A DNA stretch of 62,731 nt, the filler included, from Vermamoeba vermiformis (taxonomy: Eukaryota): the NCBI GenBank assembly GCA_045837725.1. It is 5 parts of 5 records of this genome, joined end to end, with 100 filler letters (N's around TTAATTAATTAA, not from the genome) between each part and the next. Parts side by side here need not be neighbours in the genome. Positions count along the whole stretch, not along the records: positions 1 to 18,586 come from JBEWZL010000206.1; 4 more parts are not named here. The stretch is one strand, 5' to 3'. This document shows, piece by piece, positions 1 to 46,975 of the stretch. How positions within the stretch are numbered: the stretch's first letter is position 1; every line of letters starts with the position of its first letter. A program made the translations under genes and the position numbers. The notes beneath the pieces were generated by a model, which worked only from the letters and a program-made list of their open reading frames with translations, had not been told where the DNA came from and did not search any database.

Positions 1-550
1 ATTTCGGCGAGCACACTTTAATAAATTTATCGCCGAACAGCAACCACACATCAACGAATAAACTTAACCGGTGATAGAACAGCTTATATAGTATATAATA
101 GTCAGCAAATTAATCGTCAGCGTGGTCGTACTGTAAGGTAAGATCCCCGGCACTTTAGCATCTGATAAAATTTTTGTTCAACTATGAATTATATGATTCT
201 GTCTATTATATTTCGCATATATATATATTATACCAATTATTGGTGCATAACAGAGCTTGAATTACACCAAAATTGAATTTTTTCGGTTTATTCGATCTGG
301 CTCGGAAATTATCGTTTTTCCAAAATAGCTTGGCAGCAATACTTCATAATTTAATATAATACAAGGAAAATTATCTAAAGTATGATTTGCAGAAATTTTG
401 TACATTCGATACTGCTGTGCCCCCATCCGCGAACTCTCTCTCAAGCAACAACAGAACAATCAAAATTGGCCTGGGAGTGGTTCTAGTTATCAAGTATGTA
501 ATGCTTTAGCACTATAGATAAGAATGCAACTGATTCTCAATAGTATAGGA

Positions 551-3480
551 ATGGCTGCGATTGTGAATGAAGGTGCGACGTGTTACATCAGCGCATCTCT
601 TCAGTTATTGTACAGTTTAGCACCGTTGCGCGAGCAAATCTTAATATGCAATCCTAAAACACCTCTTGGACTTGAATTGAAGAAGATATTTGTGCAAATG
701 TCACAATTAAAAACCGTTCAAATTGGGCAACTCGCAACGTTAATGAACATCAGCAAGTCAGACTGTCGACATAAACAAGAAGATGCCCAGGAATTCATCA
801 TTAGTGTTGTTCATAAATTGGATAAAGACAAAGAGATGAAAAGAATTTTCTCGTCGGTGTTTGCAGGTTCGACTGTTACCACAATATCTGAGCGAAACAT
901 TGAACCATTTTTGGGTAAGTGCATTGATAGTTTAACGCAACTCTGACAGCAAAGTTGCAGATTTGTCCGTTCCAATTCCAAAACACCCGGCTCCAACTCT
1001 GATTGAATGCATTCAGTTATTGTTCGACAACAATACAAAGTTTCATTCAATGCCGCAAGTACTGCTGTTGCATATAAAGCGATTTTCGGCCACTAAAAAG
1101 CTTACTTCTCGAGTTGAATTTCGAGCAAAGTTGACAATACCAGCAACATTAAATGACAACAATTGCGCAGAGGCATTCAAGTTGCAGTCGTACATTGTCC
1201 ATCAAGGTTCCAAAAACAAAGGTCACTATTGGACAAATAGTCTTTGTAATGGACAATGGATGGAATTAAATGACACAAAAATAACTAAAGTAAGGTATAT
1301 CATTTTGTAGGCAACTTTCTGACATCAATAGATTAGTGGAGCTGCCAATCAAAAGTACTTTGAAGGCGAGTCTGTCGGATACCTAGTTGCATATGTTCAA
1401 GAGAGAGCTCAATCACCAATGAAAGCTAAGAGAGCTGCTACCAAGAAAATTGATGATGATTATATGGACTGGGATACAGCATCAAGCTCTGATATGCCAG
1501 CAATTCACTCTATTGATAGTGACTCTTACGAAGCAAGTGAAAGTGTTGACTCTGACTACTGGTTTGAAGATTATGAGTGTGAGGAAGTATCGGATGAACA
1601 GCCAAAAGTAAACAAATTTGCTGATGGTAAGTAATAAGGAATGCATTGATATTAATCTAATGGATTCCCAGTGAAAAAGCAAGCTGAAGTTGAGGGCTGG
1701 AAGATTGACGGCAAAAAGTTCAAATCCAAGAAAGATTACATCCCTCCTCCTGCTCCTGGCCCAAAGCGTGCAGTAATACTTCAGATAATCAACCAAATTC
1801 GGCAGCTACACAATCAATCCCAATTACAATCAGTTCTTAATGTCAGTCCCCTTGATTGTTACTTGTTGCTAATGGAGGAAGTTATTAACCACATTGTTTC
1901 CGAAACCAACAAGCAAAATGACAAATTTAAGCTCACTTATAGTGATATTAGTGCGTACATCGGAGTAAGGATAGCCCAGCAATTATCTCCAAGTCATGCT
2001 ATTGATGATGCTTGGGCAACATTCAAGTATTCAAGAGGAATGTGGGGTAATCGTTGGATTGCCAAAACAATGCTCAAAGATGAATACAAGTTCATACACA
2101 GCAACAAGTCGTAAGTGATTGTGCTGCATTTATCAATACTAATTCATTCAGTTTTGATCTTTATCATGTGTGGCGGCTCTTAAATGAGAAATATTCCTCA
2201 ATTTGGACCCCTTATGGAAACTTGGCACTTGATGATAAAGCAAATGCATGGAAAGGGCGTTCAATTTATCGAATTTACCGTCAACGGAAACCATTCCCAT
2301 GGGCAATGTTAGAATACATCACAATTGATGAAGCAGGCTGGATTGTAGCATTCATTCCACGTTATGGAGATTTTGCTAGTGTTACAAAGCAGTATCAACA
2401 GTGGAAAGAACGATATGACAATTGGTTGCAAAACAAAGGAGATAAACCACCAGCATTCAAACGCTTGTTCCCAAGTGCCAGCAAGACAAACTTCAATTTA
2501 CACATGGCTATCAATTTTTTGTTGTCAAGACTTCCTGACACTGATGGCAATTTGGCACCCTTTATAGTGTCTCCATGGACAGTTGATGACTGGAGTGCAA
2601 TATTCTCTCGCGATATTTCCAACTATCAAATATATTGTGACAGAGAGTTCAGTTCTTATTGGCATCACTTTCGTCAATTCAAAGGTCTTGGATATACCTT
2701 GGGCATTGCTTCTGGACACCACACTCATCTATTCCGCGACAACTTAGCCGTTGGTTTGAAAATTGGAGACTGGCATTCATTAACGGATAATTCAGAAGTC
2801 ATTTTGACATATTCTGATCCTCAAGGGTCAGTTTGCCATTGGGTTAGTAACAGGCATTCTGGAGAAGCTGTAGCATGCAGCAAGAAGCAAGGCAACAAGC
2901 AAGTCAAAAAGCAAAAAGTCGCTTCTGTCCCTACATTAATAGCACAGTACAGAAAGCATTTTTCAGCAGTTGACTCTCATAACTCCAAAGCCAAAAAATT
3001 CTTTTGGCCACATCGCATTCGCAAGGTAAAGACAGTATTTTATCTAAAATGGTGTAACGTAACGTTTTAGGTTACTGATCGCTATGTGCTGGGAGACTGG
3101 GAGAGATCTGCTCAGGTTCAGGCGGAGCTATTGTACCAGGCTCTAACAGACAAGGACATATCATCAAAGGAATTTCTGTCCACCTTGTCTCGCAGTTTGA
3201 CAGAGAACTTTGTAACAAAGAGAGAGAGATCAACTTCTGTTGAAGCATTGGACTTAGCAAGGTCAAGTGCCAAACACAATCCTTATGCACACAGTTGCAC
3301 GTATACTTTTGGATCACGGAAACGTTGCTTCCACTGCCAGAGTGAACAAGTTGATTCTTCTACAATGTAAGCTTACTTATTATTTCATTAATAACAGTCA
3401 ACCTTAGGTATAAATGCCAACAGTGTAAAGTGCACCTCCACAAAAAGTGCTGGAAGAAATTTAAAGGAGTGAATTTATAA
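551..3480 (+). CDS. USP (peptidase C19) domain fused in frame to a piggyBac (DDE_Tnp_1_7) transposase with C-terminal Cys-rich domain; about 890 aa, 5' end uncertain
   Basis: GT-AG introns at 915-960, 1290-1331, 1627-1671, 2111-2151, 3026-3070 and 3367-3407 join the ORFs in one frame. USP motifs: NEGATCYISASLQLL, QEDAQEF, EPFLDLSVPIP, LLLHIKRF, HQGSKNKGHY, LNDTKI, GYLVAY. piggyBac motifs: LALDDKANAWKGR, IYCDREFSS, YRKHFSAVDSHN, then RCFHC...YKCQQCKVHLHKKCW. Confidence 0.85.
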
Positions 3481-3518
3481 TTAAAATAGTAGTAATCTAG
3501 TTGTTAGTCAGGCAAGTG

Positions 3519-3782
3519 GTGACGTGTTCCACGTTGTGGTGTGACATGAGCACGAAAGTGACTGCTGTGGTTAGACGTAAGACTCTCCACATGTATGTGT
3601 GGGTATGAGTCAGAATGAGCCTTCCACAGTAGAATTGCCACTGGTCTATTGGACTCTCCTAAGTGACGTGTTCCACGTTGTGGTGTGACATGAGCACGAA
3701 AGTGACTGCTGCAGTTAGACGTAAGACTCTCCACATGTATGTGTGGGTATGAGTCAGAATGAGCCTTCTGCAGTAGAATTGC
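3519..3782. repeat. Two near-identical ~120-bp direct repeats (period 144 bp) downstream of the transposase
   Basis: gtgacgtgttccacg...cagtagaattgc at 3519-3638 and 3663-3782. Confidence 0.95.
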
Positions 3783-3818
3783 TTAGATAAGAGTTCAAAA
3801 AACCCATTTTTCAGTGAT

Positions 3819-3847
3819 GGGTATCGTATACCCTTGCAGTTGGTTAA
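3819..3847 (+). mobile_element. Probable right end of the piggyBac element
   Basis: Subterminal palindrome GGGTAT-CGT-ATACCC followed by TTGCAGTTGG|TTAA, matching the piggyBac ...GG-TTAA end. No matching left TIR found in 1-550. Confidence 0.6.
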
Positions 3848-4227
3848 GGAATATCACCATTGATAACTTCAAATTAAACTAAAATTAAAAAATTCGAATG
3901 TCGATTACGCACTGTTTTTCAGCAAAATATAGCTTTGATTTTCGCATGGTATGCCAAATGCAGACATAACAGCCCATTGCATTGATCTGATGCGAGCCTG
4001 TCGGTTGATCCAGATCCGCTTCGATTTGCTTGTCAAGGTTTGTACGTAAACAGGAATAATTTCTTCGTTACGCTCCATCGTTGTGTTTCATCTTGTTTTT
4101 AATGCATAGCAACTGAAAAAGTGGCACTGATCAAAAAAAAAATTTGAGTTGTTTGACCAGGTCTTATTTGACCAATTGGTTTTTAACATAAAAAAAAAGC
4201 TCGATGTTTTGTGTTGCTTTAAAACGC

Positions 4228-4488
4228 ATTATTCCCGATTTACTAAAAACGGCACCACTTATAATTTATCATAAATTTTTTTGATAATTTGAAACCGCAC
4301 AAACTTTTCGTAGACGACAAGTTGCGCGATTGCTATTGCTGAATTAGTGGGCATTTCCATAGTCCTACTAACTGCAGCAAGAGCGAACGATTTAGCGAGT
4401 GTTTGAAAAAAGTTACACCGCTACCAAAATTATCAAAAAAGTTTCTGATAAATTTTTGTGGTACCGTTTTTAATAAAATGGGAATAAT
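4228..4488. mobile_element. MITE-like non-autonomous element with long imperfect terminal inverted repeats
   Basis: attattcccgatttactaaaaacggcaccac... matches the reverse complement of ...gtggtaccgtttttaataaaatgggaataat, and similarity continues inward (ttttttgataattt / aaattatcaaaaaa). No ORF. Confidence 0.75.
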
Positions 4489-4543
4489 TATTTAATTTCT
4501 AATAAAAGGGATTGTGGCATGCACAGAGGGGTTGGTTTTTAAC

Positions 4544-7500
4544 TTAAGCTTCGAAAGACTCCAACAAAGCCTTCTCAAACATTTCAGAGATCAATTCGCC
4601 GAACTCTTCATCGTCAATAGATCCGCTGTTATCTTTGTCGAATTGGTGCAAAGCATATTCGGCAACGTAAGCGTCCGGAGCTTCAAGCAACTTTCTGACC
4701 AATGGGAAGGTGCCGTGGTAGAACTCGCTCACGGCATCAAAAAGCTTCTCGCCTGGGATCTTATTATTGGCAGCAAACTTCTTGAACGTCTTATCGACGA
4801 GTTGCTTGTGCGCATCCGAAGCGAACAAAACTTTGAGTTGCTGTAAGCAATAAACGTTAATTACTTGTATAATAAATTGGATGTAAACATGAATGAATTA
4901 ATATAGTAAGATGAAGATCTTTACTATTCGGTGTTTTTTCAATTTACGGTTGAAAAGTACTGAAATTTCCAAGAATAAATTTATAACATAAAATGCACTT
5001 ACGGCAGACTTGTCCTGAGCCCAGCTCTCAGAATGACGATCAACTTCCCATCGTTCGTTAGCGACAGTAGTCACAGTCGTCTTGCTCGATGATTGCAAAA
5101 GCGAGTAATTCACGCTCCAGCCATCGTTCTTTTGGAGAGTATTGACCAAAGCATAGTTTCGATTTTCAGCGACTAAATAAGGCAAATTAGAATCTAGATT
5201 TTCTTTCAAATATGAAAAAACGAACCTGCAGTATGTTCGTAACTGAATCGCTCGTCGATGGATCCGCTGCGAGCAGGGAAAAATTTGCAGACGTGATTGG
5301 TCAACGGACTGGTCGTCACGTGACGGATGACCGAGTTAGTCTTGTTGTCCTTGATAGTAGACTCGACACCAACGTGAATGTCACCGCCCATCATGAGGAC
5401 TTCGCGACCCTTAGTAGCCGCCTTCCATTCGAACAACATCGACAACAACTTGACGAGCTCGTCTTTGTTGTAGGGCCAGTGATCCACGATGAACTCGGTG
5501 TGCGGATCCAACGCCTTTTTCTTGGCCTCATCGGGACTGTTAACAAAAATATTAGAACACGAACATATTAGGTTTAAAGTTGTGGGGGTAAGATTGAAGC
5601 TGGCCTACCTGTCGCCAACAAAAGGAATCTCGGAAACTACGAGCAAAGCCTTCAAGTCGGGAGTGTGCAAGGACTTCTCAATGAACTTCCATTGCTGCTC
5701 GCTGACAAGTGGCTTTTCGGGGAAAGTGTCGCCATTGGTGTCAATACTACGAGGAAACGTTAGGCAAAGCTTAATAGGGGAAATTAGAACAATGACTTAC
5801 CGGTTACCACGCATGTCAATGAACAGGACACCGACATCGCCGTACTTGTGGAAATGGAACTCGTCGCAGTGCTTGCCCACGTGCTTCTCGTACTCAGGGT
5901 CCCACAACTGATGTTGATATTCGCGATACACTTCGTGCGCTAGCTTGAGCACGAGAGGCGGCAGAACAACGCCTTCAACAACACCCAACGTGAAGTCATT
6001 GTAAATATCATTGTCACTCCAAATCATCAAATGGGGAGCATTAGCCAACACCTCTGACATTGGATAGTATTAATACGATGGCTCCTAAATCGGAAATATT
6101 AATGTGGTTACCTTTGGTGCCAGGCAAGTTCCAGTTGAATCTGTAAGCCTCGCGCAATCGGTTGCGAATCTTCTCGTGGAGTTCAGCGGTTTGAGTAGCG
6201 TTAAGAGCGAGACCAGCATGTCGGCGCAACATGACCATAGCGTCGGTGAAGTACTGGTGCATGTAGACTTGGTCTCCAAGATGCAACATGACATCGACTT
6301 TGCGACCAGGCTTTTGGATCAAGTTGCCAATAGTGACCCACAGATTTTCTTCGCCTTCTTTCAAGCGCTCGGGCCGATCGCAAGAAACAGCGACAAAGTC
6401 TGGAGAAACAATTAACGAGTGAAATTTCGGGCGATAAACAATGGGACTTACCAACTTTGCTAATCTTTGCGGGGAGAGTTGTCAAAGTGCCAACACGCTC
6501 TTCAGGGTTCTTAACGCCTTCAAAAGTGATCAAGTAACGACGATCAGGGTCCAATTTCTTGAAGTGGAACACTTTCGGCTTGTTCGCGGGCATCTCCTGT
6601 GACACGAGGAACTTCTTTTTGGTGATTTTGTCGGTCAAGACGCACGTCACTGGCGCACGTTCATTGACTTCTAACAACACAATTGCAGAGCTGGAAGTGA
6701 CGTCACCGACAACAGGACCAACGGTAGCTACGTAGATCAGTTAGTTCATGAATGAGATTTTCTAAATAAGGCAAAAATAGAGCTTACCGATCACGTGACT
6801 GCGATGCGTGCCAACAATCAGAGATTCAAGTCGAGGATTCTTTTTGTTGTTGAATAAGATAAGACCTAAACAATAAAGAAAATTAATATAAGTCCATCAT
6901 ATGGCATATTATATCATACTTACCGTAGTTTCTCTCGTTGTATACAATGTGCTTGTACTGGAATCTATTGTCAATAGTGCCAGTCAACGAAGGGAAAAAC
7001 TCGCACACGTGATTGGTGATGGGCGTCGTGGTCAATTGACGAATGACTAGGCCTGTCTTAGTGTCCTTGATCGTGGTGTCCACACCAACGTGAATGTCAC
7101 CTGCATTAACATAAGTAAAAATTGTTGCAAAGTTAGATCGGACGTACCTCCGAGCAACAAGACTTCACGAGACGGATCTTCGCTCTTCCAAGTAAAAGTG
7201 GTGTCGAGGAACTTGATCAACTCAGTTGAGTTATAAGACCAGTGGTCTTTAATGAACTCGAGTTTAGGTTCCTTGGCCTTCTTTTCAGCGTCTTCCGGAG
7301 TATCTCCGACAAATGGAATTTCAGCAGCGACAATCAGATCTGCCCTCAAAAGTTAGTAAAGGAACTCTTCAGAATAACTAATATTATGGCGTACTCTTCA
7401 GATTAGGAGATGAAAGGCATCTCTTAATGAAAGTCCATTGGTTGCTGCTAACAACAGGATTGTTCGGCAAAGTACGGCCTTCAGGAGTAATTCTGAAAAA

Positions 7501-9077
7501 AAATTAAATAATTAATAATTATGTTTAAATAGTGTCATATTTATGTATTTACCTATTGCCACGCATATCCACGAACAAGACGCCAAGCTCTCCGTACTGA
7601 TGATAATGGAACTCATCAGTGTCTTTGCCAACGTGTTGTTCGAAATGAGGGTCCCATAATTGACGTTGATATTCACGATAGACTTCGTGGCCTAATCTCA
7701 ACAATAAGGGAGGCCTAATAAACAATTTTAATTTTGTATCAAATCATAAGCGCAATTTCAATTTCAATTTCCATTCATTATTTAAAATTCTAACAAGGTA
7801 ACTTGAGTGAAATACGAAAGCTAAATATGAAGTATACTTACAATACTACTCCGTCAACGGTTCCGAAGGTAAAATCGTTGTAAATGTCGTTGTCACTCCA
7901 GATCATGAGATGAGGAACTTCAGCCAGGACTTCGCGCAAGTGAGGCAAGTTCCAATTGAATCTGTAAATGTCTCGGAGGGTATTGCGAAGATTTTCATGA
8001 AAATCTTCCTTTTCCAAAGCAGACATTTGGCTGTAGTTAGATCTTCGGAGTTTGATCATGGCGTTAGTGAAGCCAGGGCCCAAATAGACCTGATCTCCCA
8101 AATGGAGCATCAAATCGACTACATGATATTATTAGATTAATATCCAAATTTATCCGGCGAAATTCAAATCCGGAAAATCTTTTTGGATCCGTAACTTACT
8201 GCCTCCTTTTCGAACGTTAGACAAAAGCTTTTGCCATAAATTCATTTGACCCTCTAACAATCGTTCGCTACGATCGCAACTAACAGCAACAATCTACAGG
8301 ATACACAATTAATATTTAAAATAGATCAGCCTTAGAAATTAACTCTATTAATAATTACGAGCATCGGAGCTGTTGCTGGTATACTAACTTACTTGTAAAC
8401 CATTGTAATCTTTAGCAGGCGTAGTAAAACGACCGATTCTAGTGGCCGCATCCCGGCGTTTCACTCCGGTAAAAGAAACAACCAACTTGGTTGCAGCTGG
8501 CAAGTTCTTAAATACAAACGCCTATAATGATAAACATTATAAATACCATAAATCAACAGATTTTGAAGCTTTACAAAGATTTTCGGCAAATTATGGTAAA
8601 AAAATATCTTTGTGATCTTGATCGAGTATGAATTTCTTACTTTGGGTTTGCTAGCAGGCATCTTTTGCGCCAAAGTGGCTACTTTTTGACCACTAGGGCT
8701 GGCATGAAGGTGACAGACGACTTCAGCCTCGCGATCAACCTCAAGCAAAATGATTGCCGAGGTGGCAGTGACTTTGCCGATTACAGGACCAAGTAAAATT
8801 GACACTAAATATTATATTATTAATAAACTGATTTAATTTAGGGAAAGGGATTGAATACAAAATAGATTTTTTGCGTGTCAGAAAAGATCTCCTCAAAAAT
8901 TTGACTTGGCACTCGAAAATTTTTGAGCAGTATTTAAATTTCGAACAAGTATATTATTAATTATATTGTACCTTGTTCGCCAGCGGAGGTCAAGTCAGGA
9001 CTCTCCACAAGGTGTTGCAGAAGTTGCAGCTCGCTTTGCAAAGTCTGAATGTGAGCCAATATGTCTTGTTGCGCCAT
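4544..9077 (-). CDS. Multi-exon protein with two tandem PhoD-like metallophosphatase domains and a C-terminal EF-hand region
   Basis: Two copies each of GP(V/T)(I/V)G.VT..SAI.LLEV, VSCDR.ER, LHLGDQVY, WSDNDIYNDF, D.RGNR, DHW.YN and GGDIHVG. Terminal EF-hand loop DKDNSGSIDDEEF. ATG at 9077 inferred. Confidence 0.8.
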
Positions 9078-18586: not shown

Positions 18587-18686
18587 NNNNNNNNNNNNNN
18601 NNNNNNNNNNNNNNNNNNNNNNNNNNNNNNTTAATTAATTAANNNNNNNNNNNNNNNNNNNNNNNNNNNNNNNNNNNNNNNNNNNN
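18587..18686. other. Artificial contig-join spacer (N44-TTAATTAATTAA-N44)
   Basis: Identical 100-nt spacer with stops in all six frames occurs four times. Confidence 0.97.
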
Positions 18687-34630: not shown

Positions 34631-35134
34631 TGTTTTCCAACTGGAATGAGAGGGGCCTGCAATTAGCCATCAATCAATAAATTCCATTTTACCTGCAGTA
34701 AAGTTGTAATTGTTATTAAGCAACTGCGAGTGTAAGGATTGTGTTTTGCACTTGCTGTGGCCAAATCTAAAAGCTCTTTGCAATACACTGAGCTGTTAAG
34801 TACGCAGTCCGGCAATACCTCACTGCGTAATCATCGAGCATCAAAGCAGATTCACTCGGAATAGAGGCTTTCTTTCCTAAAAGCTAGTCCTCTGTATTAA
34901 ATTAATTTAACAATACATTAATTACGTAGTCTGTAATATCGTCGCACAGTTCCCAATAGGCTCCGTCTCAATTTTATTTAAAATTAATTAAATTCAATCT
35001 GGCTCGATCAAAGGTTTCAAATGGTAAAAACTTACAGAAATAATTATTTAATGACGATTATACTATATAGGAGGCTACTACAATTTAGGGTTATGCGTTC
35101 TACGGGCTGATAACACCCTTGCCAGATAAGACTA

Positions 35135-35576: not shown

Positions 35577-35676
35577 NNNNNNNNNNNNNNNNNNNNNNNN
35601 NNNNNNNNNNNNNNNNNNNNTTAATTAATTAANNNNNNNNNNNNNNNNNNNNNNNNNNNNNNNNNNNNNNNNNNNN
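35577..35676. other. Artificial contig-join spacer
   Basis: N44-TTAATTAATTAA-N44. Confidence 0.97.
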
Positions 35677-39557: not shown

Positions 39558-39657
39558 NNNNNNNNNNNNNNNNNNNNNNNNNNNNNNNNNNNNNNNNNNN
39601 NTTAATTAATTAANNNNNNNNNNNNNNNNNNNNNNNNNNNNNNNNNNNNNNNNNNNN
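39558..39657. other. Artificial contig-join spacer
   Basis: N44-TTAATTAATTAA-N44. Confidence 0.97.
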
Positions 39658-39906
39658 ACGACGCTATTAGTCATCATCGCGGAAATTTCAGTGAAAACTC
39701 CACGATGACGAAGAAGCTTCGAACAACATCAATAACCCAATAGCAATATGACAACAAATAATTAATAATATATAGAATGACCTAGAACATTCTACGGTCA
39801 AGTATAAATAACGTTGTAAACGAATCCGATCTTGTATTCTCTTTTATTTTAATAAACAACACATTACAACAATCACTTAGACGTTGATAGCCCACACAAC
39901 GTTACA
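39658..39906 (+). repeat. 5' LTR
   Basis: Identical by eye to the 3' LTR; ends CGTTACA. Confidence 0.95.
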
Positions 39907-39963: not shown

Positions 39964-41586
39964 ATGTCTACTCGCGACTTCGCCGCCCCCGTGAAAAGAA
40001 GACCTGGACGCCCACCTCATATCAAAGGGAAGGGAGGTCCTGCGACTTATGTCCCAAGCAACACTAATGTTGGCCCGAACAATAACAACTCTCCGATCCA
40101 AACACCGCCGAGATCTCCCAGCGAAGCCTCTCTCGCTAGTTCTCGCGACATGGTATCCGATGGTGTGTTAAGCCCTCTCAACAGCCCTCAACCTGTGTTG
40201 CAGCCCGAGCCTGTTCCTCATCAGTTGCCCGAAAACTCTGGACAAAGACCCAATCCGAAGACACCACCTGCCGGCTTCAAAGCTCCGCCACCTGTGACCC
40301 CAGCCGCGAAGCAACCGCCGCATCCCAATGTTGCCGCCAATGCCGCCATGCCCTCTGGACAGGACTACGACCGATTACGACAGCAAGTGGAAAACCTGGC
40401 TGAAAGTAACCGTCGTCACCGCGATCTCTTGACAGAGAATACTAACTCAATTCGTCAAATGCGAGCAGACATGAGTGACACCAACCAACTGCTTCAAAAT
40501 TTGATCGAAAAGATTAGTGAGACTCCGCAACGCGAAGACCCTAACATCGCGAACGGATCTACCTCTAGATCTCGCTCAGATCCCTACTCAAGCGGAAATA
40601 TTACCAATGTTAGACCTTTTAATAACACTGGTTCGAACGCTCAAAATCAACAAGACTCTGACGTGCGTAGAGTTCTTGAAGATAAACACATTCCGCCTGC
40701 GATCACGAAAATCAAGTCACCTGTCAGCAATGACATCGTGCACTGGATCGAGAAATTGCAAGCCATCGCTCGCAATCAGCGTTGGACAGATGCTGACATT
40801 CGTCAAGTATTCTTGTTCCGAACTGAAGGCACATTGAACGACTTTTTGTTCAAAGAGCTGGATATTTCGACGATGACATTTGCCCAAATCGTCAATGCAA
40901 TTTTCACTAAGTGGAATAATATTGATCGTATCATGATCAATACGCACAAGCTCCAAAACACTCGTATGAACGACGGAGAAACGGTCGAAGAATACTACGA
41001 ACGTTTCCTTGATGTCGCTAATCGCGTGACTAATAAGTCTGACTTCGATAAAATGATCTCTTTTATTGATGGTCTTACTGAAGAGTTACGTGAGCACATG
41101 GTTAAGAACTCGCATCCGAAAGATCTTGACTCTGCTTACAACGCTGCACAGAACGCCGAATCTTGGAGAGCATTATTCAAGCCTAAGAAACCTGTTACGA
41201 AGAAAGAAACGATCTACCAAGTCATTCGCCCTGTAATGCCCCAGCGACCGCCGATCTACGGATCTCACCCTGGAAATTCCCCCGCACCTCGCCCCGTGAA
41301 TTTCAACACTCCAAAGCCGTATACGCCGAAGACCCCTTCAATGCCCTATACTGCTACGCCCAAGACTCCTGCTCCTACGTCCGCCAATTCAAAGTACAAC
41401 TACCCGTCAGCTGTGCGACGCCTTGACTTCACGACGCCCCAGCACAACAACATCGAAGAAGTGGAGACTGCCGATGCTGCTACCTCTACTGCCCCTCAAG
41501 ACGAAGTCAACAATGTGGAAGAATCCTACTACATCGTTGATGATGGCGCACCCGAGCCGGGAAACGACCTCTTGGAAGAGCATTAG
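39964..41586 (+). CDS. gag: Gag
   Basis: 540-aa ORF with retrotransposon gag core: WIEKLQAIARNQRW, GETVEEYYERF, FIDGL. Confidence 0.88.
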   Translation: MSTRDFAAPVKRRPGRPPHIKGKGGPATYVPSNTNVGPNNNNSPIQTPPRSPSEASLASSRDMVSDGVLSPLNSPQPVLQPEPVPHQLPENSGQRPNPKTPPAGFKAPPPVTPAAKQPPHPNVAANAAMPSGQDYDRLRQQVENLAESNRRHRDLLTENTNSIRQMRADMSDTNQLLQNLIEKISETPQREDPNIANGSTSRSRSDPYSSGNITNVRPFNNTGSNAQNQQDSDVRRVLEDKHIPPAITKIKSPVSNDIVHWIEKLQAIARNQRWTDADIRQVFLFRTEGTLNDFLFKELDISTMTFAQIVNAIFTKWNNIDRIMINTHKLQNTRMNDGETVEEYYERFLDVANRVTNKSDFDKMISFIDGLTEELREHMVKNSHPKDLDSAYNAAQNAESWRALFKPKKPVTKKETIYQVIRPVMPQRPPIYGSHPGNSPAPRPVNFNTPKPYTPKTPSMPYTATPKTPAPTSANSKYNYPSAVRRLDFTTPQHNNIEEVETADAATSTAPQDEVNNVEESYYIVDDGAPEPGNDLLEEH

Positions 41587-44500
41587 GCTCACGCTCTTCT
41601 GGCGCTAACGAGCCACTTCCAATCACCACCACACCCTCTCCTATACCCGACATACCCCTCAACCTACCCGACAATCCCGCCGAATCAAAACCCTTGGTAC
41701 TCACTTCGTTCCTAGTTGACAAGACCTTCGTCACTCTTTGGGACACTGGTGCCAGCCGCTCCTTTATCAACCGAAAGACCCTACAACAATTTCCCCAATT
41801 CAAGACAACGAAAGAACATCGCTTCATTAAGAACTCAAATGGTCAACTCACGCGCGTTAACGAATCAGTCATTTTGCCAATTCGCTTGACAAATGGTTTC
41901 CACGGAGACTTCAAATTCTTCGTGTCTGATGAAGTTAACTACCCTCTAATCTTTGGTATGGATATCTTGACAACGATAAAGCCCGTCATCGACTTGTCAA
42001 CTCAATCGGTGAAATTTCATCACTCGCCGATCGAATTCAAAGAACACGAGATCATCGATAAGACTATTACCCTCAAGTTTGATCAACAAGTCATCGTACC
42101 TGCCCGCAGTGAAGTTCTCTTGCCCTACGACGTGCACTTTGGTACAAATGTCTACGCCTTTGTTGAACGTTCCGACGCCTTTACCACGCAACATGGTGTG
42201 ATCCTCGCCGAAGCTCTGGTCAAGTGCTCGAATGGTCGTATCCCTCTGCGACTATTGAACCCTACAAACCGCGACATTGCCCTTCCTGCTCATCGGAAAA
42301 TTGGTCGACTTGTTCCCTTTCAGAAGATTGTCCTCAACGATCTCAACGCTCTCAAAATCGACATATCACAAGAAGAATTCTTCAAGCTATTCAATTTCGA
42401 CGAAATGAAGTTAGAAGATAATATACTATCGCGCCTGAAAGCCATATTATGGAAATGGAAGCACGTATTCGTCTTTGGTTCAACTGGTAACCTTGGTAGC
42501 ACCGACTTAGTTGAACACAAGATAGAAACGAATGGTCAAATCATCAAACAATCGCCCTACAGAATCCCCTACGCCTACCGCGACGAAGCAAAGCAAATCA
42601 TCGACAAAATGCTACAAAATGGTGTCGTCACTACTTCATCATCATCATACTCGTCACCAGTAGTGCTAGTTAAGAAGAAAGATGGTTCCCTGCGCTTTTG
42701 CGTTGACTATAGAAAATTGAACGAAATCACTCGCAAAGACGTCTACCCGCTGCCGCGCATCGACGACATGTTTACACTGCTTAGTGGCAATTGTTACTTC
42801 TCTGGTGTAGACGCTGATAGTGGTTTTTGGCAAATTCGAGTCAAGCCTGAAGATCAACACAAGACTGCGTTCTCAACTCCGTTTGGTCTCTTCGAATTCC
42901 GACGCATGCCTTTTGGTCTCTGCAACGCCCCTGCCACCTTTCAACGCCTCATGGACATCGTACTCTCTGGCCTCTTATGGGATATATGCTTAGTTTATAT
43001 GGACGATATTATCATTTTTGGTAGAAATCTCGACGAACACTTCAACAACCTCGAAACCGTATTTGGCGCTCTCGCAAGTGCTGGTATCACGCTCAAACCC
43101 AGCAAATGCCGCTTCTGCCAACGTGAACTGCCCTTCCTTGGTCACGTGGTTTCCGAAAAAGGAATTGCAACAGATCCGTCAAAGATTGCAAAAGTCCGCG
43201 ACGCTGCAGTACCTAAGAATATTCATGAATTACGCTCCTTCCTTGGTCTCTCTGGATATTATCGAAAATTCATCAAGAATTACGCGAAACACGCCGAGCC
43301 CTTGGTTAAACTCACCAGATCTGATACGAAATATCAATGGACACAAGAACAGCAAGCCTCATTCGACAAACTCAAAGCCAAACTTGTCAAAGCACCTATT
43401 TTGGCCTATCCCGACTTCAACAAGCCCTTCACGCTCTACACTGATGCCTCATCCGTTGGACTTGGTGGAATTCTCAGCCAAACTTTTGACGACAAGCCCC
43501 GAGTCATCGCATACTGGTCCGAAACTCTTACTCCTGGTCAACGCTCATGGTCTGCCACTGAAAGAGAATCGCTAGCTATGGTTCACGCTGTCAAATACTT
43601 CCGCTATTTCCTTATCGGAAGGAAATTTCAACTCGTCGTTGATCATCATTCATTAGTCTTCAAAATGTCTGATGCAAACTCTAAGCTCATCAAACACGCC
43701 ATTCAACTTCAAGAATATGATTTCGACATTGTCTACAGATCCGGAAAATCTCACACTAATGCCGACACTATGTCACGACCTCCTATCGTCACCACCGAAC
43801 TCAACAATACCCAAGAAGAACCATTACCCTTTTCAGAAGAATATTTCCGTAAAAATCAACGCCTGGATCCAACGATCTCCTACATCTGCGACTACTTCGA
43901 GAAGAAGATCGAGCCCGCTTCGCAGAAAGAAAAGCTACAACTTCAACGCATCACTGCCGACCTAGTAATAGAAGATGGAATATTATATAGAATTTGGAAA
44001 CCCTTTGGACGCGCCCTAGACGAACATCGACAGATCTTCTTGCCGCTGCATCTGCGACCGAAAATTCTCAAGTTCTATCACGACTCTCTATTTGGTGCTC
44101 ATCTTGGATTCTTCAAGACGCTCAACAAAATTCGCGAACGCTTCTATTGGTTTGGTATGCTTCGTGACGTGCATCACTATGTCACATCCTGCGAATCCTG
44201 CACGCGAAGAAAAGTTTATGGAAAACTCTATGGAAAACTCAAGACTATTCCAATCACCGACGCCTTCGACACTATTGGAATGGACATCCTTGGACCCTTC
44301 AAAGAATCACGCAACGGCTACAAATACATTCTCGTCATCACTGACTACGCTACTAAATGGGTTGAAGCCTTCCCGCTCTTCAGTATCTCATCAGAAGACA
44401 TCGCCCGTATTTTAGTTGAAGAAATCGTTTGCCGCCACGGATCGCCTGGTCAGATCATCACGGATCAAGCTGATAATTTCAACTCCGAAATGATTCAACA

Positions 44501-45462
44501 AGTCTACAAGCTGCTCAACACGAAGAAAATCCGCACTGTTGCCTATCACCCTCAAACCGACAGTCTCACGGAAAAATTTAATCACACTTTGGCAAAAATG
44601 CTCACGCCTTATGTCAACGAATCGCAAGACGACTGGGACGAATATCTCCGCTTTGTTCTTTTTGCCTACAACACTGCCGAATGAATCGACGAAATTTACG
44701 CCGTTCTTCCTGCTCTATGGTCGACACGCGAAAATGCCCGTGCCCTGGGATCACATCTCGCCGCCTCCTCAGATCCACGACAGTTATCAAGGTTATGCTA
44801 AAGATATGCTCAATCGCCTAGCCATTGCCAAGAAGATTTCGAAAACGAACATCACGAAAGCGCAAGCTCATCAAAAGAAGAATTACGACAAGAAGAAGAA
44901 AGACGAAAAGAAAATTCCGCCTGATTCAATAGTTTGGTATAACAAATACAAACTCGATGAAGGTACTACTCACAAGCTTGCCTACAAAAATGATGGCCCC
45001 TTCGTCATTAAGAAAATCGATGGACTCAATGCCGAGATCGCGCTCAAAGAAAATCCCGCTTATGTCAAACGCGTCAACGTGTCACAACTCCGCATTCAGA
45101 AACCGCGCCGCGCCGAACTTGAAGAGAATGATAGTTTGTCTTCTACCGACAAACCGAACTCACCGCCGCCTACAATCGAAGAAGAAATCTTAAGTGAGAA
45201 AACCCCTGTCAAACGTCAACGTCAATCAACGGATAATCAACTCGTGCAATCGCTCCGCCTGATTCAACAATCCATCAAACCCACGTCATCACTCGCTCCT
45301 CTCAAGAAGAACATTAATCAACTCGTTGGACTCTCATCAACGTACTCCCGCTCTACTTCAACGAAAGAAAACAACGAGAAGTTGGTACGCAAATGCTCTA
45401 CACCCGCCGAACTGATAAGTTTGATCGATCACTTCATTCAAACTTACGCCTCAGAGGACTGA
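41559..45462 (+). CDS. pol: Pol (protease, RT, RNase H, integrase), reached by -1 frameshift; frame break near 44680
   Basis: WDTGAS, LRFCVDYRKLN, YMDD, LYTDAS, HLG...CESC, IITDQ. The integrase continues in another frame (NESTKFTPFFLLYGR) after YNTA. Confidence 0.92.
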
Positions 45463-45484: not shown

Positions 45485-45737
45485 TGTAACGACGCTATTA
45501 GTCATCATCGCGGAAATTTCAGTGAAAACTCCACGATGACGAAGAAGCTTCGAACAACATCAATAACCCAATAGCAATATGACAACAAATAATTAATAAT
45601 ATATAGAATGACCTAGAACATTCTACGGTCAAGTATAAATAACGTTGTAAACGAATCCGATCTTGTATTCTCTTTTATTTTAATAAACAACACATTACAA
45701 CAATCACTTAGACGTTGATAGCCCACACAACGTTACA
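45485..45737 (+). repeat. 3' LTR (253 bp, TGTAACG...CGTTACA)
   Basis: Terminal inverted repeats, TATAAATA and AATAAA within. Confidence 0.96.
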
Positions 45738-46875: not shown

Positions 46876-46975
46876 NNNNNNNNNNNNNNNNNNNNNNNNN
46901 NNNNNNNNNNNNNNNNNNNTTAATTAATTAANNNNNNNNNNNNNNNNNNNNNNNNNNNNNNNNNNNNNNNNNNNN
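46876..46975. other. Artificial contig-join spacer
   Basis: N44-TTAATTAATTAA-N44. Confidence 0.97.

What the first reader, a model, noticed from the sequence alone, without database searches (positions are those of the whole stretch)
551..3847. piggyBac transposase fused to a ubiquitin-specific protease
Seen: six canonical introns join an intact-looking USP (Cys codon at 581, His at 1224, Asn/Asp in LNDTK), an acidic linker, a piggyBac D-D-D core and the Cys-rich domain into one ~890-aa frame, followed by a plausible GG|TTAA end. Known: some eukaryotic transposons carry Ulp1/SUMO or OTU proteases (Mutator, Zisupton, Helitron). I do not recall a USP-piggyBac fusion family. Inference: the element may deubiquitinate itself, histones or host silencing factors, or it may be a domesticated gene.
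Basis: partly seen in the sequence, partly recalled or inferred. Interest (0 to 1): 0.82.

Follow-up and report, generated by a model that had tools for sequence, protein, structure and literature searches.

The report
Deubiquitinase fused to piggyBac transposase
A seven-exon eukaryotic gene joins a small but complete-looking ubiquitin-specific protease to an intact piggyBac-type transposase in one reading frame, and a second, distantly related copy from another sample has the same layout, so the pairing is conserved and appears not to have been described for this transposon family.

Summary
Exons 551-914, 961-1289, 1332-1626, 1672-2110, 2152-3025, 3071-3366 and 3408-3480 (+) join through six GT..AG introns of 41-46 nt into an 889-aa frame. 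Pfam finds UCH/USP in exons 1-2 and piggyBac DDE_Tnp_1_7 in exons 4-5. The junction lies inside exon 3.

A metagenome contig, L001, encodes an intact 887-aa homologue with the same architecture. Identity is 44% in the USP part and 57-66% in the transposase part, and five of the six intron positions are shared.

The 3' non-coding DNA is also conserved. It holds two ~145-nt tandem repeats with a 45-nt core and an 18-nt terminal block ending at 3854. Contigs of another run diverge at exactly 3854.

No left end lies in the window, copy number is unknown, and nothing here tests expression.

Best reading: transposase gene of a divergent, mobile or recently mobile piggyBac lineage that carries its own deubiquitinase. 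A domesticated fusion gene is the main rival.

Nine literature searches found no USP-piggyBac report. A 2010 paper notes a C19 peptidase fused to a different DDE transposase in Trichomonas. Verdict: new variant of a known kind.

The parts
551..914 (+). Exon 1. It holds the start codon and the USP Cys box (NEGATCYISASLQ), with the catalytic Cys11 codon at 581-583.
   Evidence: Pfam UCH E 3.1e-11. Best solved relative is USP34, E 4.2e-05. L001 is 48% identical over residues 1-124.
961..1289 (+). Exon 2. USP palm and His box, with His210 at 1224-1226 and N225/D226 in ELNDTK. The finger tip is shortened.
   Evidence: Pfam UCH E 1.2e-16. In the alignment to USP2 (2ibi), 6 query residues stand opposite 28 chain residues between chain positions 231 and 260. 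There is no CxxC pair among the six Cys of residues 1-258.
1332..1626 (+). Exon 3. It runs from the last USP strand (GYLVAYVQER) straight into the acidic Ser/Asp-rich linker without a stop. This is the fusion point.
   Evidence: One open frame of 98 codons. The equivalent L001 exon (1356-1659) is also continuous. Residues 270-320 hold 19 Asp/Glu of 51.
1672..2110 (+). Exon 4. N-terminal domain of the piggyBac transposase (GW..G..F..PP.P motif and helical region).
   Evidence: Pfam DDE_Tnp_1_7 E 3.2e-07, profile 7-87. 58% identical to L001. The same motif is present in relatives P0004 and P0005.
2152..3025 (+). Exon 5. Catalytic core of the transposase, with D503 (2231-2233), D639 (2639-2641) and D750 (2972-2974).
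   Evidence: Pfam DDE_Tnp_1_7 E 3.1e-09. The three Asp columns are invariant in all 7 aligned sequences. The profile hits T. ni piggyBac 6x67 at E 5.4e-07. The AlphaFold model (pLDDT 65.9) has 6x67 and piggyBat 9c0f as its best PDB matches, E 1e-05.
3071..3366 (+). Exon 6. C-terminal helical region and the first half of the Cys/His-rich domain.
   Evidence: The exon 5/6 junction is confirmed by P0002 and L001, which read straight through it without an intron.
3408..3480 (+). Exon 7. Second half of the Cys/His-rich domain, followed by the TAA stop.
   Evidence: Eight Cys/His positions of residues 836-880 correspond exactly in the window and L001 (11 Cys/His in the window, 9 in L001). Pfam gives only sub-threshold PHD/C1/RING-like matches.
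3519..3782 (+). Two tandem subterminal repeats (3519-3638 and 3663-3782, 97% alike). Each has a 45-nt conserved core (about 3520-3564 and 3664-3708) carrying three GTGAC words and a small palindrome.
   Evidence: The same arrangement sits at the same place in L001 (3494-3609 and 3644-3759). The 29-nt core pattern is found 2 times in the window against 0 in 100 shuffles.
3837..3854 (+). Conserved terminal block CAGTTGGTTAAGGAATAT, with TTAA at 3844-3847. This is the probable right end of the mobile unit.
   Evidence: It is identical in L001, and similarity stops after it. Two contigs of run X3 match up to 3854 and then run on unlike (table 7).

Best explanation
This is one spliced gene for an 889-aa protein. 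A minimal USP-type (peptidase C19) deubiquitinase of about 258 aa, with shortened fingers and no zinc site, is joined by a roughly 75-aa acidic linker to a complete piggyBac-type transposase. The transposase has its N-terminal domain, a D-D-D RNase H-like core and a Cys/His-rich DNA-binding domain.

The fusion is old. It predates the split of two lineages that are now only 57% identical, and both halves have stayed intact in both.

I take it to be the transposase gene of a divergent piggyBac-like transposon that is mobile or was so recently. Its right end is at 3854. The two subterminal repeats are probably the binding sites of the Cys/His-rich domain.

Inferred mechanism, not shown: the transposase part binds the repeats and cuts and pastes the element. 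The tethered deubiquitinase works in cis at the transpososome. Most likely it strips ubiquitin from the transposase itself and so protects it from degradation. Alternatively it acts on ubiquitinated chromatin or repair factors at the break.
For: What is shown:
- The gene model, the domains and the catalytic residues.
- The junction lies inside one exon.
- L001 has the same architecture, is intact at 887 aa, and shares 5 of the window's 6 intron positions and phases. Each locus lacks one intron that the other has, which confirms those two junctions.
- No internal Met position between the USP and transposase parts is shared by the two loci.
- The 3 coding differences between the window and run X3 are all synonymous (3 of 3).

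Evidence for a transposon:
- At 57% protein identity the 3' non-coding DNA still keeps two copies of a 45-nt core per locus and an identical 18-nt terminal block.
- The palindrome arms ACGTG/CACGT in the window are ACATG/CATGT in L001. Both arms changed together, in all 4 copies.
- X3 contigs match at 95% or better up to 3854 and then diverge (2 contigs). One X3 contig joins unlike DNA to 3669-3854 only, as an internally deleted copy would.
- Word depth in X3 is 8.9 over 3697-3850, against 1.1-1.9 in the flank just after.
- L001's flanks show no similarity to the window.
- The nearest relatives without a detectable USP (P0004, P0005, P0008) look like ordinary full-length piggyBac transposases.
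Against: - No left end, inverted repeat or second set of subterminal repeats lies in the 550 nt upstream of the start codon, nor anywhere else in the 62.7-kb window.
- Only one copy is in the window, and the whole genome is not held, so copy number is unknown.
- The conserved block runs 7 nt past the TTAA. The flanks after it (CACC, AATG, TGCA) are not TTAA, which does not fit the canonical piggyBac end.
- A gene with six introns at conserved positions resembles the domesticated piggyBac genes (PGBD5, PiggyMac, TPB2) more than typical intronless elements.
- The X3 depth figures are low (2-9) and noisy. The two loose ends agree at 0.73, so they may be variants of a single alternative context.
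- Neither deubiquitinase nor transposase activity is tested, and there is no RNA evidence for or against a single mRNA.
Confidence: 0.5

Rival explanations
1. Domesticated host gene. A piggyBac transposase was captured as the DNA-binding or DNA-cutting module of a cellular deubiquitinase, as in other host-transposase fusions. The window and L001 would then be orthologues or paralogues in related species. The protein would bring deubiquitinase activity to specific DNA sites, or take part in programmed DNA rearrangement. The conserved 3' repeats would be its own regulatory or target sites.
For: Six introns, five at conserved positions. By the passages read in PMC5381638, introns are typical of the domesticated PGBD5, PGM and TPB2. 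N-terminal host fusions of piggyBac transposases are a known route: SCAN-PGBD1 and CSB-PGBD3. There is a single copy in the window, no left end within 550 nt, and the gene sits among ordinary host genes: EF-hand, PhoD-like and M1 aminopeptidase fragments. All 3 coding differences to X3 are synonymous.
Against: Non-coding repeats and an identical 18-nt terminal block survive at 57% protein identity, which is what transposase-end co-evolution predicts. Near-identical copies of the 3' end stand in other sequence contexts in X3. All three catalytic Asp and the Cys/His domain are intact in both loci. L001's flanks show no synteny, though only about 0.5 kb was available on each side.
Confidence: 0.3
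2. Two products from one locus. The main transposase would be made without the USP part, from an internal promoter or start such as Met261, Met276 or Met286. The fused frame would be a minor or untranslated isoform.
For: Three Met codons lie just after the USP domain. No RNA data bear on this.
Against: None of those Met positions is shared with L001, which has Met242 and Met301. The frame stays open across the junction in both loci despite only 24% identity in the linker. There is no stop and no splice site at the junction.
Confidence: 0.1
3. The USP part is a catalytically dead or re-purposed module, for example a ubiquitin- or SUMO-binding domain that only targets the transposase to modified chromatin. 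It would not be a working deubiquitinase.
For: The fingers subdomain is shortened by about 22 residues relative to USP2, and there are no zinc-ligand pairs. The USP part evolves faster than the transposase (44% versus 57-66% identity).
Against: The Cys box with the Asn five residues before the Cys, the ED.QEF motif, the His box GHY and the ELND motif are all kept in both loci. A dead enzyme would usually have lost one of these. By my recollection, other active USPs also lack the zinc site or have reduced fingers (USP7, CYLD).
Confidence: 0.1

Closest known systems
piggyBac / piggyBat transposases (T. ni piggyBac, PDB 6x67/6x68; Myotis piggyBat, 9c0f)
   Same: Pfam DDE_Tnp_1_7 is matched above threshold. 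The profile match to 6x67 covers the first and third catalytic Asp and the C-terminal Cys-rich region. These are the best fold matches of the exon 5 model. The acidic N-terminus and the repeats near the element's end are also shared.
   Different: The lineage is very divergent. Only 30 proteins of 1.84 billion representatives reach E 0.001 with exon 5. D1 and D2 are 136 aa apart. There is an extra N-terminal USP domain and six introns. The conserved right end runs 7 nt past the TTAA. No inverted left end has been seen.
N-terminal host-transposase fusions of piggyBac (SCAN-PGBD1, CSB-PGBD3)
   Same: A foreign N-terminal module is joined in frame to a whole piggyBac transposase, and N-terminal fusions are tolerated by the transposase (PMC5381638, passages).
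   Different: Those are mammalian domesticated genes. The partner is a SCAN domain or CSB exons joined by splicing, and some have lost catalytic Asp residues. Here the partner is an enzyme (USP), the junction lies inside an exon, the D-D-D triad is intact, and end-like DNA is conserved.
Transposases carrying ubiquitin-like-modifier proteases: Ginger1 (OTU or Ulp1), Mutator-like elements (Ulp1), Helitrons (OTU)
   Same: A cysteine protease of the ubiquitin/SUMO system is built into a DNA-transposon protein. The authors proposed a role of the ubiquitin pathway in transposition or repair (PMC2836005, passages).
   Different: The protease clans (OTU, Ulp1/C48) and the transposon superfamilies differ. 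In Ginger1 the protease is C-terminal.
Trichomonas vaginalis protein XP_001314237.1 (transposase_11 pfam01609 plus Peptidase C19), as cited in PMC2836005
   Same: It has the same protease family (C19/USP) fused to a DDE transposase. This is the only earlier mention of such a pairing that I found.
   Different: Its transposase is of the IS4/IS5 type (pfam01609), not piggyBac. I could not fetch the protein, and the source paper (Gladyshev and Arkhipova 2009) is not held, so any relationship to this gene is untested.
Cellular USP catalytic domains (USP2, USP21, USP46, USP34)
   Same: These are the best solved-structure matches of exon 2 (E 6e-06 to 5e-05) and exon 1 (USP34, 4e-05). The Cys box, the His box and the Asn/Asp are in register.
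   Different: At about 258 aa it is much shorter, the finger tip is deleted, there is no zinc site, and there are no flanking regulatory domains.

Membership tests
piggyBac superfamily transposase | Match to the family profile (Pfam PF13843 DDE_Tnp_1_7) above the curated threshold | tested here: met
   Exon 4 scores 30.4 bits and exon 5 scores 37.0 bits, against a cutoff of 22.4. The profile of exon 5 plus 6 relatives hits T. ni piggyBac 6x67 at E 5.4e-07.
piggyBac superfamily transposase | Catalytic D-D-D triad on an RNase H-like fold | tested here: met
   D503 and D750 align with the first and third catalytic regions of 6x67. D639 (DREF) is assigned by its invariance in all 7 aligned sequences, not by alignment to a solved structure. 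The exon 5 model's best PDB matches are 6x67 and 9c0f (E 1e-05, TMq 0.43; model pLDDT only 65.9).
piggyBac superfamily transposase | C-terminal cysteine-rich DNA-binding domain | tested here: inconclusive
   Eight Cys/His positions correspond exactly between the window and L001, and the profile alignment reaches the 6x67 C-terminus. No Pfam zinc-finger family reaches its threshold, and binding is untested.
piggyBac superfamily transposon (the element, not the protein) | Terminal inverted repeats flanked by a duplicated TTAA | tested here: inconclusive
   Only a right end is visible. TTAA lies at 3844-3847, but conservation runs on to 3854. No left end is in the window. The window starts 550 nt before the start codon.
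piggyBac superfamily transposon (the element, not the protein) | More than one copy, at different genomic places | tested here: inconclusive
   There is one copy in the window and the genome is not held. X3 contigs show other contexts after 3854 and before 3669, with raised depth over the end, but depth is low and X3 is a mixed sample.
USP / peptidase C19 deubiquitinase | Match to the family profile (Pfam PF00443 UCH) over its whole length | tested here: met
   Exon 1 covers profile positions 3-135 and exon 2 covers 141-236 of 254. Scores are 43.8 and 61.6 bits against a cutoff of 23.9. The last strand, in exon 3, is seen by eye only.
USP / peptidase C19 deubiquitinase | Catalytic Cys (Cys box), His (His box) and Asn/Asp | tested here: met
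   Cys11 in GATCY, His210 in GHY and N225/D226 in ELND are kept in the window and in L001 and are in register with USP2 and USP34. Which residue is the third catalytic one is recalled from USP2, not tested.
USP / peptidase C19 deubiquitinase | Hydrolysis of ubiquitin conjugates | not testable with these tools
   This needs recombinant protein. The spliced domain could not be handed to the structure tool, because only unjoined window sequence is accepted.
Domesticated piggyBac-derived gene (PGBD type) | Single copy at a syntenic place in related species, with the ends lost | tested here: inconclusive
   L001's flanks (522 and 533 nt) have no similarity to the window, and end-like DNA is conserved. 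Both points speak against domestication. The flanks are short, and no related genome could be searched.

The most novel reading that the evidence does not exclude
An autonomous piggyBac lineage that has carried a working USP deubiquitinase for a long time and needs it to transpose. The enzyme would strip ubiquitin from the transposase, or from chromatin or repair factors at the break. The ends would also depart from the canonical TTAA-flanked inverted repeat: the terminal block ends 7 nt beyond the TTAA, and TTAAGGAATAT is half of a perfect 18-nt palindrome.
Probability: 0.3. Interest if true: 0.8.

Novelty: new variant of a known kind. Interest (0 to 1): 0.62.

Why it matters
Transposons of several superfamilies carry SUMO or OTU proteases, yet nobody knows what these do for transposition. 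Here the protease is a USP, the best understood deubiquitinase class, and it is tethered to piggyBac, the best understood and most widely engineered eukaryotic cut-and-paste transposase.

That gives a directly testable system. One can compare excision and integration for the wild type, a catalytic-Cys change and a USP deletion.

If the deubiquitinase raises transposase stability or steers repair of the excision site, it would show that ubiquitin is a host control point on DNA transposons. It could also suggest ways to tune piggyBac vectors. If the gene is domesticated instead, it would be a deubiquitinase targeted by a transposase's DNA-binding module, a new kind of host-transposase fusion.

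Tried and rejected
- RNA evidence. No RNA holder was listed for 400-3900. Three RNA runs with the same species label (X13-X15) laid 0 reads on window 1-4600, flanking genes included. The tool marks this as no test, so it says nothing about expression or splicing.
- Whole genome. None is held, so copies and the left end could not be searched.
- Left end. The 17-mer with up to 3 mismatches matched only itself and a chance-like site at 34716. All TTAA pairs compared gave at most 8 of 16 matches. Local alignment of 1-620 against the reverse complement of the 3' region scored 19 for the window and 22 for L001, against a shuffle mean of 20.4 and maximum of 29. Rejected: the TTAA at 64-67 as the left end.
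- Palindromic target idea. ATATTCCTTAAGGAATAT has 0 matches in the window with up to 3 mismatches. TTAAGGAATAT with up to 1 mismatch has 2 matches against 2.0 expected. No support.
- Public collections. The 18-nt end gave 16 exact matches in prokaryote contigs, which is about the 17 I calculate by chance for 596 Gb on both strands, so they are irrelevant. The 29-nt core gave 0 matches in viral contigs.
- Word-based protein searches for longer proteins, with exon 5 and exon 1, found none. The tool calls this weak evidence.
- ESM Atlas with P0002 returned only piggyBac-only clusters and no cluster with UCH.
- Rfam on 3400-4000 gave no match.
- Earlier notes of this scan held nothing relevant.
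- Synteny. tblastx and blastn of L001's flanks against the window gave only chance-level hits.
- Structure of the USP domain was not attempted.
- The Gladyshev and Arkhipova 2009 paper, the source for the Trichomonas fusion, is not held.
- Supplements are closed. The element lists in the supplements of PMC5381638 could contain such a fusion, and I could not see them.
Full report
**Observation**

Joining exons 551-914, 961-1289, 1332-1626, 1672-2110, 2152-3025, 3071-3366 and 3408-3480 by coordinates gives 2670 nt, an 889-aa frame ending in TAA. The six introns are 41-46 nt long, begin GTAAG or GTAAA and end AG. Each would introduce an in-frame stop if it were retained.

Seven exon translations were scanned against Pfam:
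- UCH (PF00443): exon 1 (E 3.1e-11, profile positions 3-135 of 254) and exon 2 (E 1.2e-16, positions 141-236).
- DDE_Tnp_1_7 (PF13843): exon 4 (3.2e-07) and exon 5 (3.1e-09). All four matches are above the curated cutoffs.
- Exons 3 and 6: nothing.
- Exon 7: only sub-threshold PHD/C1/RING-like matches.

**The two halves**

*USP part.* It spans residues 1 to about 258. All the motifs I recall as canonical for USPs are present:
- the Asn five residues before the catalytic Cys (VNEGATCY);
- LQ after the Cys box;
- EDAQEF;
- the His box (HQGSKNKGHY);
- ELND;
- the closing GYLVAYVQER.

The nearest solved relatives are USP2, USP21 and USP46 for exon 2 (E 6e-06 to 5e-05) and USP34 for exon 1 (4.2e-05).

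Against USP2, 6 residues stand where USP2 has 28, at the tip of the fingers. None of the six Cys in the domain forms a CxxC pair. So this is a minimal USP with short fingers and no zinc site.

I could not fold it.

*Transposase part.* It has the GW..G..F..PP.P N-terminal motif that its relatives share. D503, D639 and D750 are invariant across all 7 sequences aligned. Eight Cys/His positions between 836 and 880 correspond exactly in the second locus.

A profile of exon 5 plus six relatives hits T. ni piggyBac (6x67) at E 5.4e-07. The alignment covers the first and third Asp regions and the C-terminus.

An AlphaFold model of exon 5 has mean pLDDT 65.9 and pTM 0.67. Its three best PDB matches are 6x67 and the two piggyBat chains of 9c0f (E 1e-05 to 5e-04; TMq only 0.33-0.43). 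The second Asp is assigned by invariance, not by alignment to a structure.

The lineage is remote. With exon 5, HMMER found only 30 proteins at E 0.001 or better among 1,835,955,588 representatives. Ten reached 1e-10 and two reached 1e-30.

**Is it really one protein?**

The strongest sequence argument is exon 3. In one uninterrupted frame, the last USP strand runs into an acidic Ser/Asp-rich stretch with 19 Asp/Glu in 51 residues. That stretch resembles the N-termini of the USP-less relatives P0004 and P0005.

A scan of JGI metagenome contigs with the alignment gave 166 pattern matches. Three encode a relative. One of them, L001 (4379 nt), aligns with the whole model: residues 1-124, 148-316, 334-475 and 477-889.

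Its gene model is an intact 887-aa frame with the same order of domains. Identity to the window, by region:

| Region | Identical / aligned | Identity |
|---|---|---|
| USP | 112 / 255 | 44% |
| Linker | 18 / 74 | 24% |
| Transposase N-terminal domain | 81 / 139 | 58% |
| Transposase core | 164 / 288 | 57% |
| C-terminus with Cys/His domain | 80 / 122 | 66% |

Both catalytic triads are kept in L001.

Five of the window's six introns sit at the same position and phase in L001. The window's intron 3026-3070 is absent from L001, and from protein P0002, which reads straight through the junction. L001's intron 993-1046 is absent from the window. Each locus therefore confirms one junction of the other.

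The Met codons after the USP domain are not at shared positions: 261, 276 and 286 in the window against 242 and 301 in L001. That argues against a conserved internal start.

The three coding differences between the window and contigs of run X3 (at 883, 1079 and 1604) are all synonymous. I have no RNA evidence either way.

**Transposon or domesticated gene?**

*For a transposon.*
- The 3' non-coding DNA is conserved between loci whose proteins are only 57% identical.
- Each locus has two tandem repeats of about 145-150 nt directly after the stop codon. They lie at 3519-3638 and 3663-3782 in the window (97% alike) and at 3494-3609 and 3644-3759 in L001 (89% alike).
- All four copies share a 45-nt core with three GTGAC words.
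- Inside the core, the palindrome arms ACGTG/CACGT of the window are ACATG/CATGT in L001. Both arms changed together.
- Both loci then carry the identical 18-mer CAGTTGGTTAAGGAATAT, and similarity stops right after it, at window 3854.
- In run X3, two contigs match up to 3854 and continue with other sequence. One contig joins unlike sequence to 3669 onward.
- Word depth in X3 is 8.9 over 3697-3850, against 1.1-1.9 just beyond.
- This pattern fits a transposon end with transposase-binding repeats, further insertion contexts, and perhaps an internally deleted derivative.

*Against a transposon.*
- There is no left end, no inverted repeat and no second set of the core anywhere in the window. The upstream 550 nt show little conservation with L001.
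- The conserved end runs 7 nt past the TTAA, and the flanks are not TTAA.
- A six-intron gene resembles the domesticated piggyBac genes more than typical elements (passages of PMC5381638).
- X3 depths are low, and its two loose ends agree at 0.73, so they may be one context.
- The window probably begins inside the unit. L001 also ends at the homologous place, about window position 18.

My weights are about 0.5 for a mobile or recently mobile element and 0.3 for a domesticated fusion. The rest is split between separate products and a non-catalytic USP module.

**Mechanism**

What is shown: an intact, conserved, in-frame USP-linker-transposase gene next to conserved repeat DNA.

What is inferred:
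- The Cys/His domain binds the 45-nt cores.
- The D-D-D core cuts and joins.
- The tethered USP acts in cis.

I think self-protection is the most likely role: removing ubiquitin from the transposase so that it escapes degradation. Editing of ubiquitin marks on chromatin or repair factors at the break is the next most likely. The idea that the ubiquitin pathway is involved in transposition or repair was proposed for OTU and Ulp1 domains of other transposons (PMC2836005, passages).

**Comparison with what is known**

Known N-terminal fusions of piggyBac transposases are SCAN-PGBD1 and CSB-PGBD3. The superfamily review PMC5381638 has 0 occurrences of 'ubiquitin' and 0 of 'protease' in its main text (find mode only; supplements are closed).

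Ginger1 transposases carry OTU or Ulp1 domains, Mutator-like elements carry Ulp1, and Helitrons carry OTU. The same paper mentions a Trichomonas vaginalis protein with a pfam01609 transposase and a Peptidase C19 domain. So a USP-type protease on a DDE transposase is not without precedent. I could neither read its source nor fetch the protein.

Nine full-text searches combined piggyBac or transposase with USP, deubiquitinase, UCH or C19. They returned no paper describing a USP-piggyBac fusion. This covers only the held open-access library.

Ten of the exon 5 relatives were scanned in Pfam. Eight have DDE_Tnp_1_7 and none has UCH. These are unspliced gene calls, so upstream exons could be missed. 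The longest hit is 648 aa. The ESM Atlas returned only piggyBac-only clusters.

**Surroundings**

Downstream lie host-like gene fragments: an EF-hand at 4544-4897 (-), weak PhoD-like matches in a tandem duplicate at 5.2-8.8 kb, and an M1-aminopeptidase C-terminal domain near 13.1 kb. A young Ty3/Gypsy element sits at about 39.7-45.7 kb. The spliceosomal introns and the retroelement show that the source is a eukaryote. I did not try to name it.

**Verdict**

It is a new variant of a known kind: a piggyBac transposase with a new accessory enzyme domain. Whether it still moves, and what the deubiquitinase does, are open questions that can be tested directly. Interest 0.62.

Noticed in passing
window 34702-34776 (-): A short stretch translates to a 19-25-residue match (58-60% identity) to the ...LDL.R...KHNPY.H.C... 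segment just before the Cys/His domain of this protein and of P0002. DNA identity is 86% over 35 nt to 3264-3298. It could be a relic of a second, decayed copy or a chance match (E 7e-04).
   Followed up: partly
window 3520-3564 and 3664-3708; L001 about 3495-3540 and 3645-3690: Inside the conserved 45-nt core, the palindrome arms ACGTG/CACGT (window) are ACATG/CATGT (L001). Both arms changed together in all four copies, as expected for a dimeric binding site or a small hairpin. Rfam has no match.
   Followed up: partly
window 3844-3854: TTAAGGAATAT is half of a perfect 18-nt palindrome (ATATTCC TTAA GGAATAT). The 7 nt after the TTAA are identical in the window and L001, and both X3 contigs match the window through 3854. 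No empty site of this kind is in the window. The meaning of these 7 nt is unexplained.
   Followed up: partly
window 39658-39906 and 45489-45737: Two 249-nt direct repeats, 100% identical, flank a 1046-aa open frame (41544-44684) with protease, reverse transcriptase, RNase H and integrase domains. This is a young Ty3/Gypsy LTR retrotransposon. Masked N runs lie just outside it.
   Followed up: partly
window 5229-8000 (-): Tandem duplicate of about 1.7-1.9 kb at 70-74% DNA identity (families D1, D2, D4, D5). One frame has a weak PhoD-like phosphatase match (E 0.0086).
   Followed up: no
window 4263-4290 / 4427-4454: A 28-nt inverted repeat, 93% complementary, with 136 nt between the arms. X3 word depth rises to 14.9 over 4313-4466, and two contigs skip 81-100 nt here. 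This looks like a small repeated, perhaps MITE-like, element next to the gene.
   Followed up: no
L001 122-138; window 39818-39834 and 45649-45665: A 17-nt exact match between L001's 5' flank and both LTRs of the window's Gypsy element (E 0.008). It is probably chance.
   Followed up: no
window 18587-18686, 35577-35676, 39558-39657, 46876-46975: Four pairs of 44-N runs (352 N in all). These stretches are masked, and what lies there is unknown.
   Followed up: no
window 524-550: An in-frame ATG at 524 precedes the ATG at 551. L001 has a stop just upstream of its equivalent ATG, so I used 551. A possible 5' UTR intron (GT near 128, AG at 542-543) would remove the upstream ATG. This is untested.
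   Followed up: no
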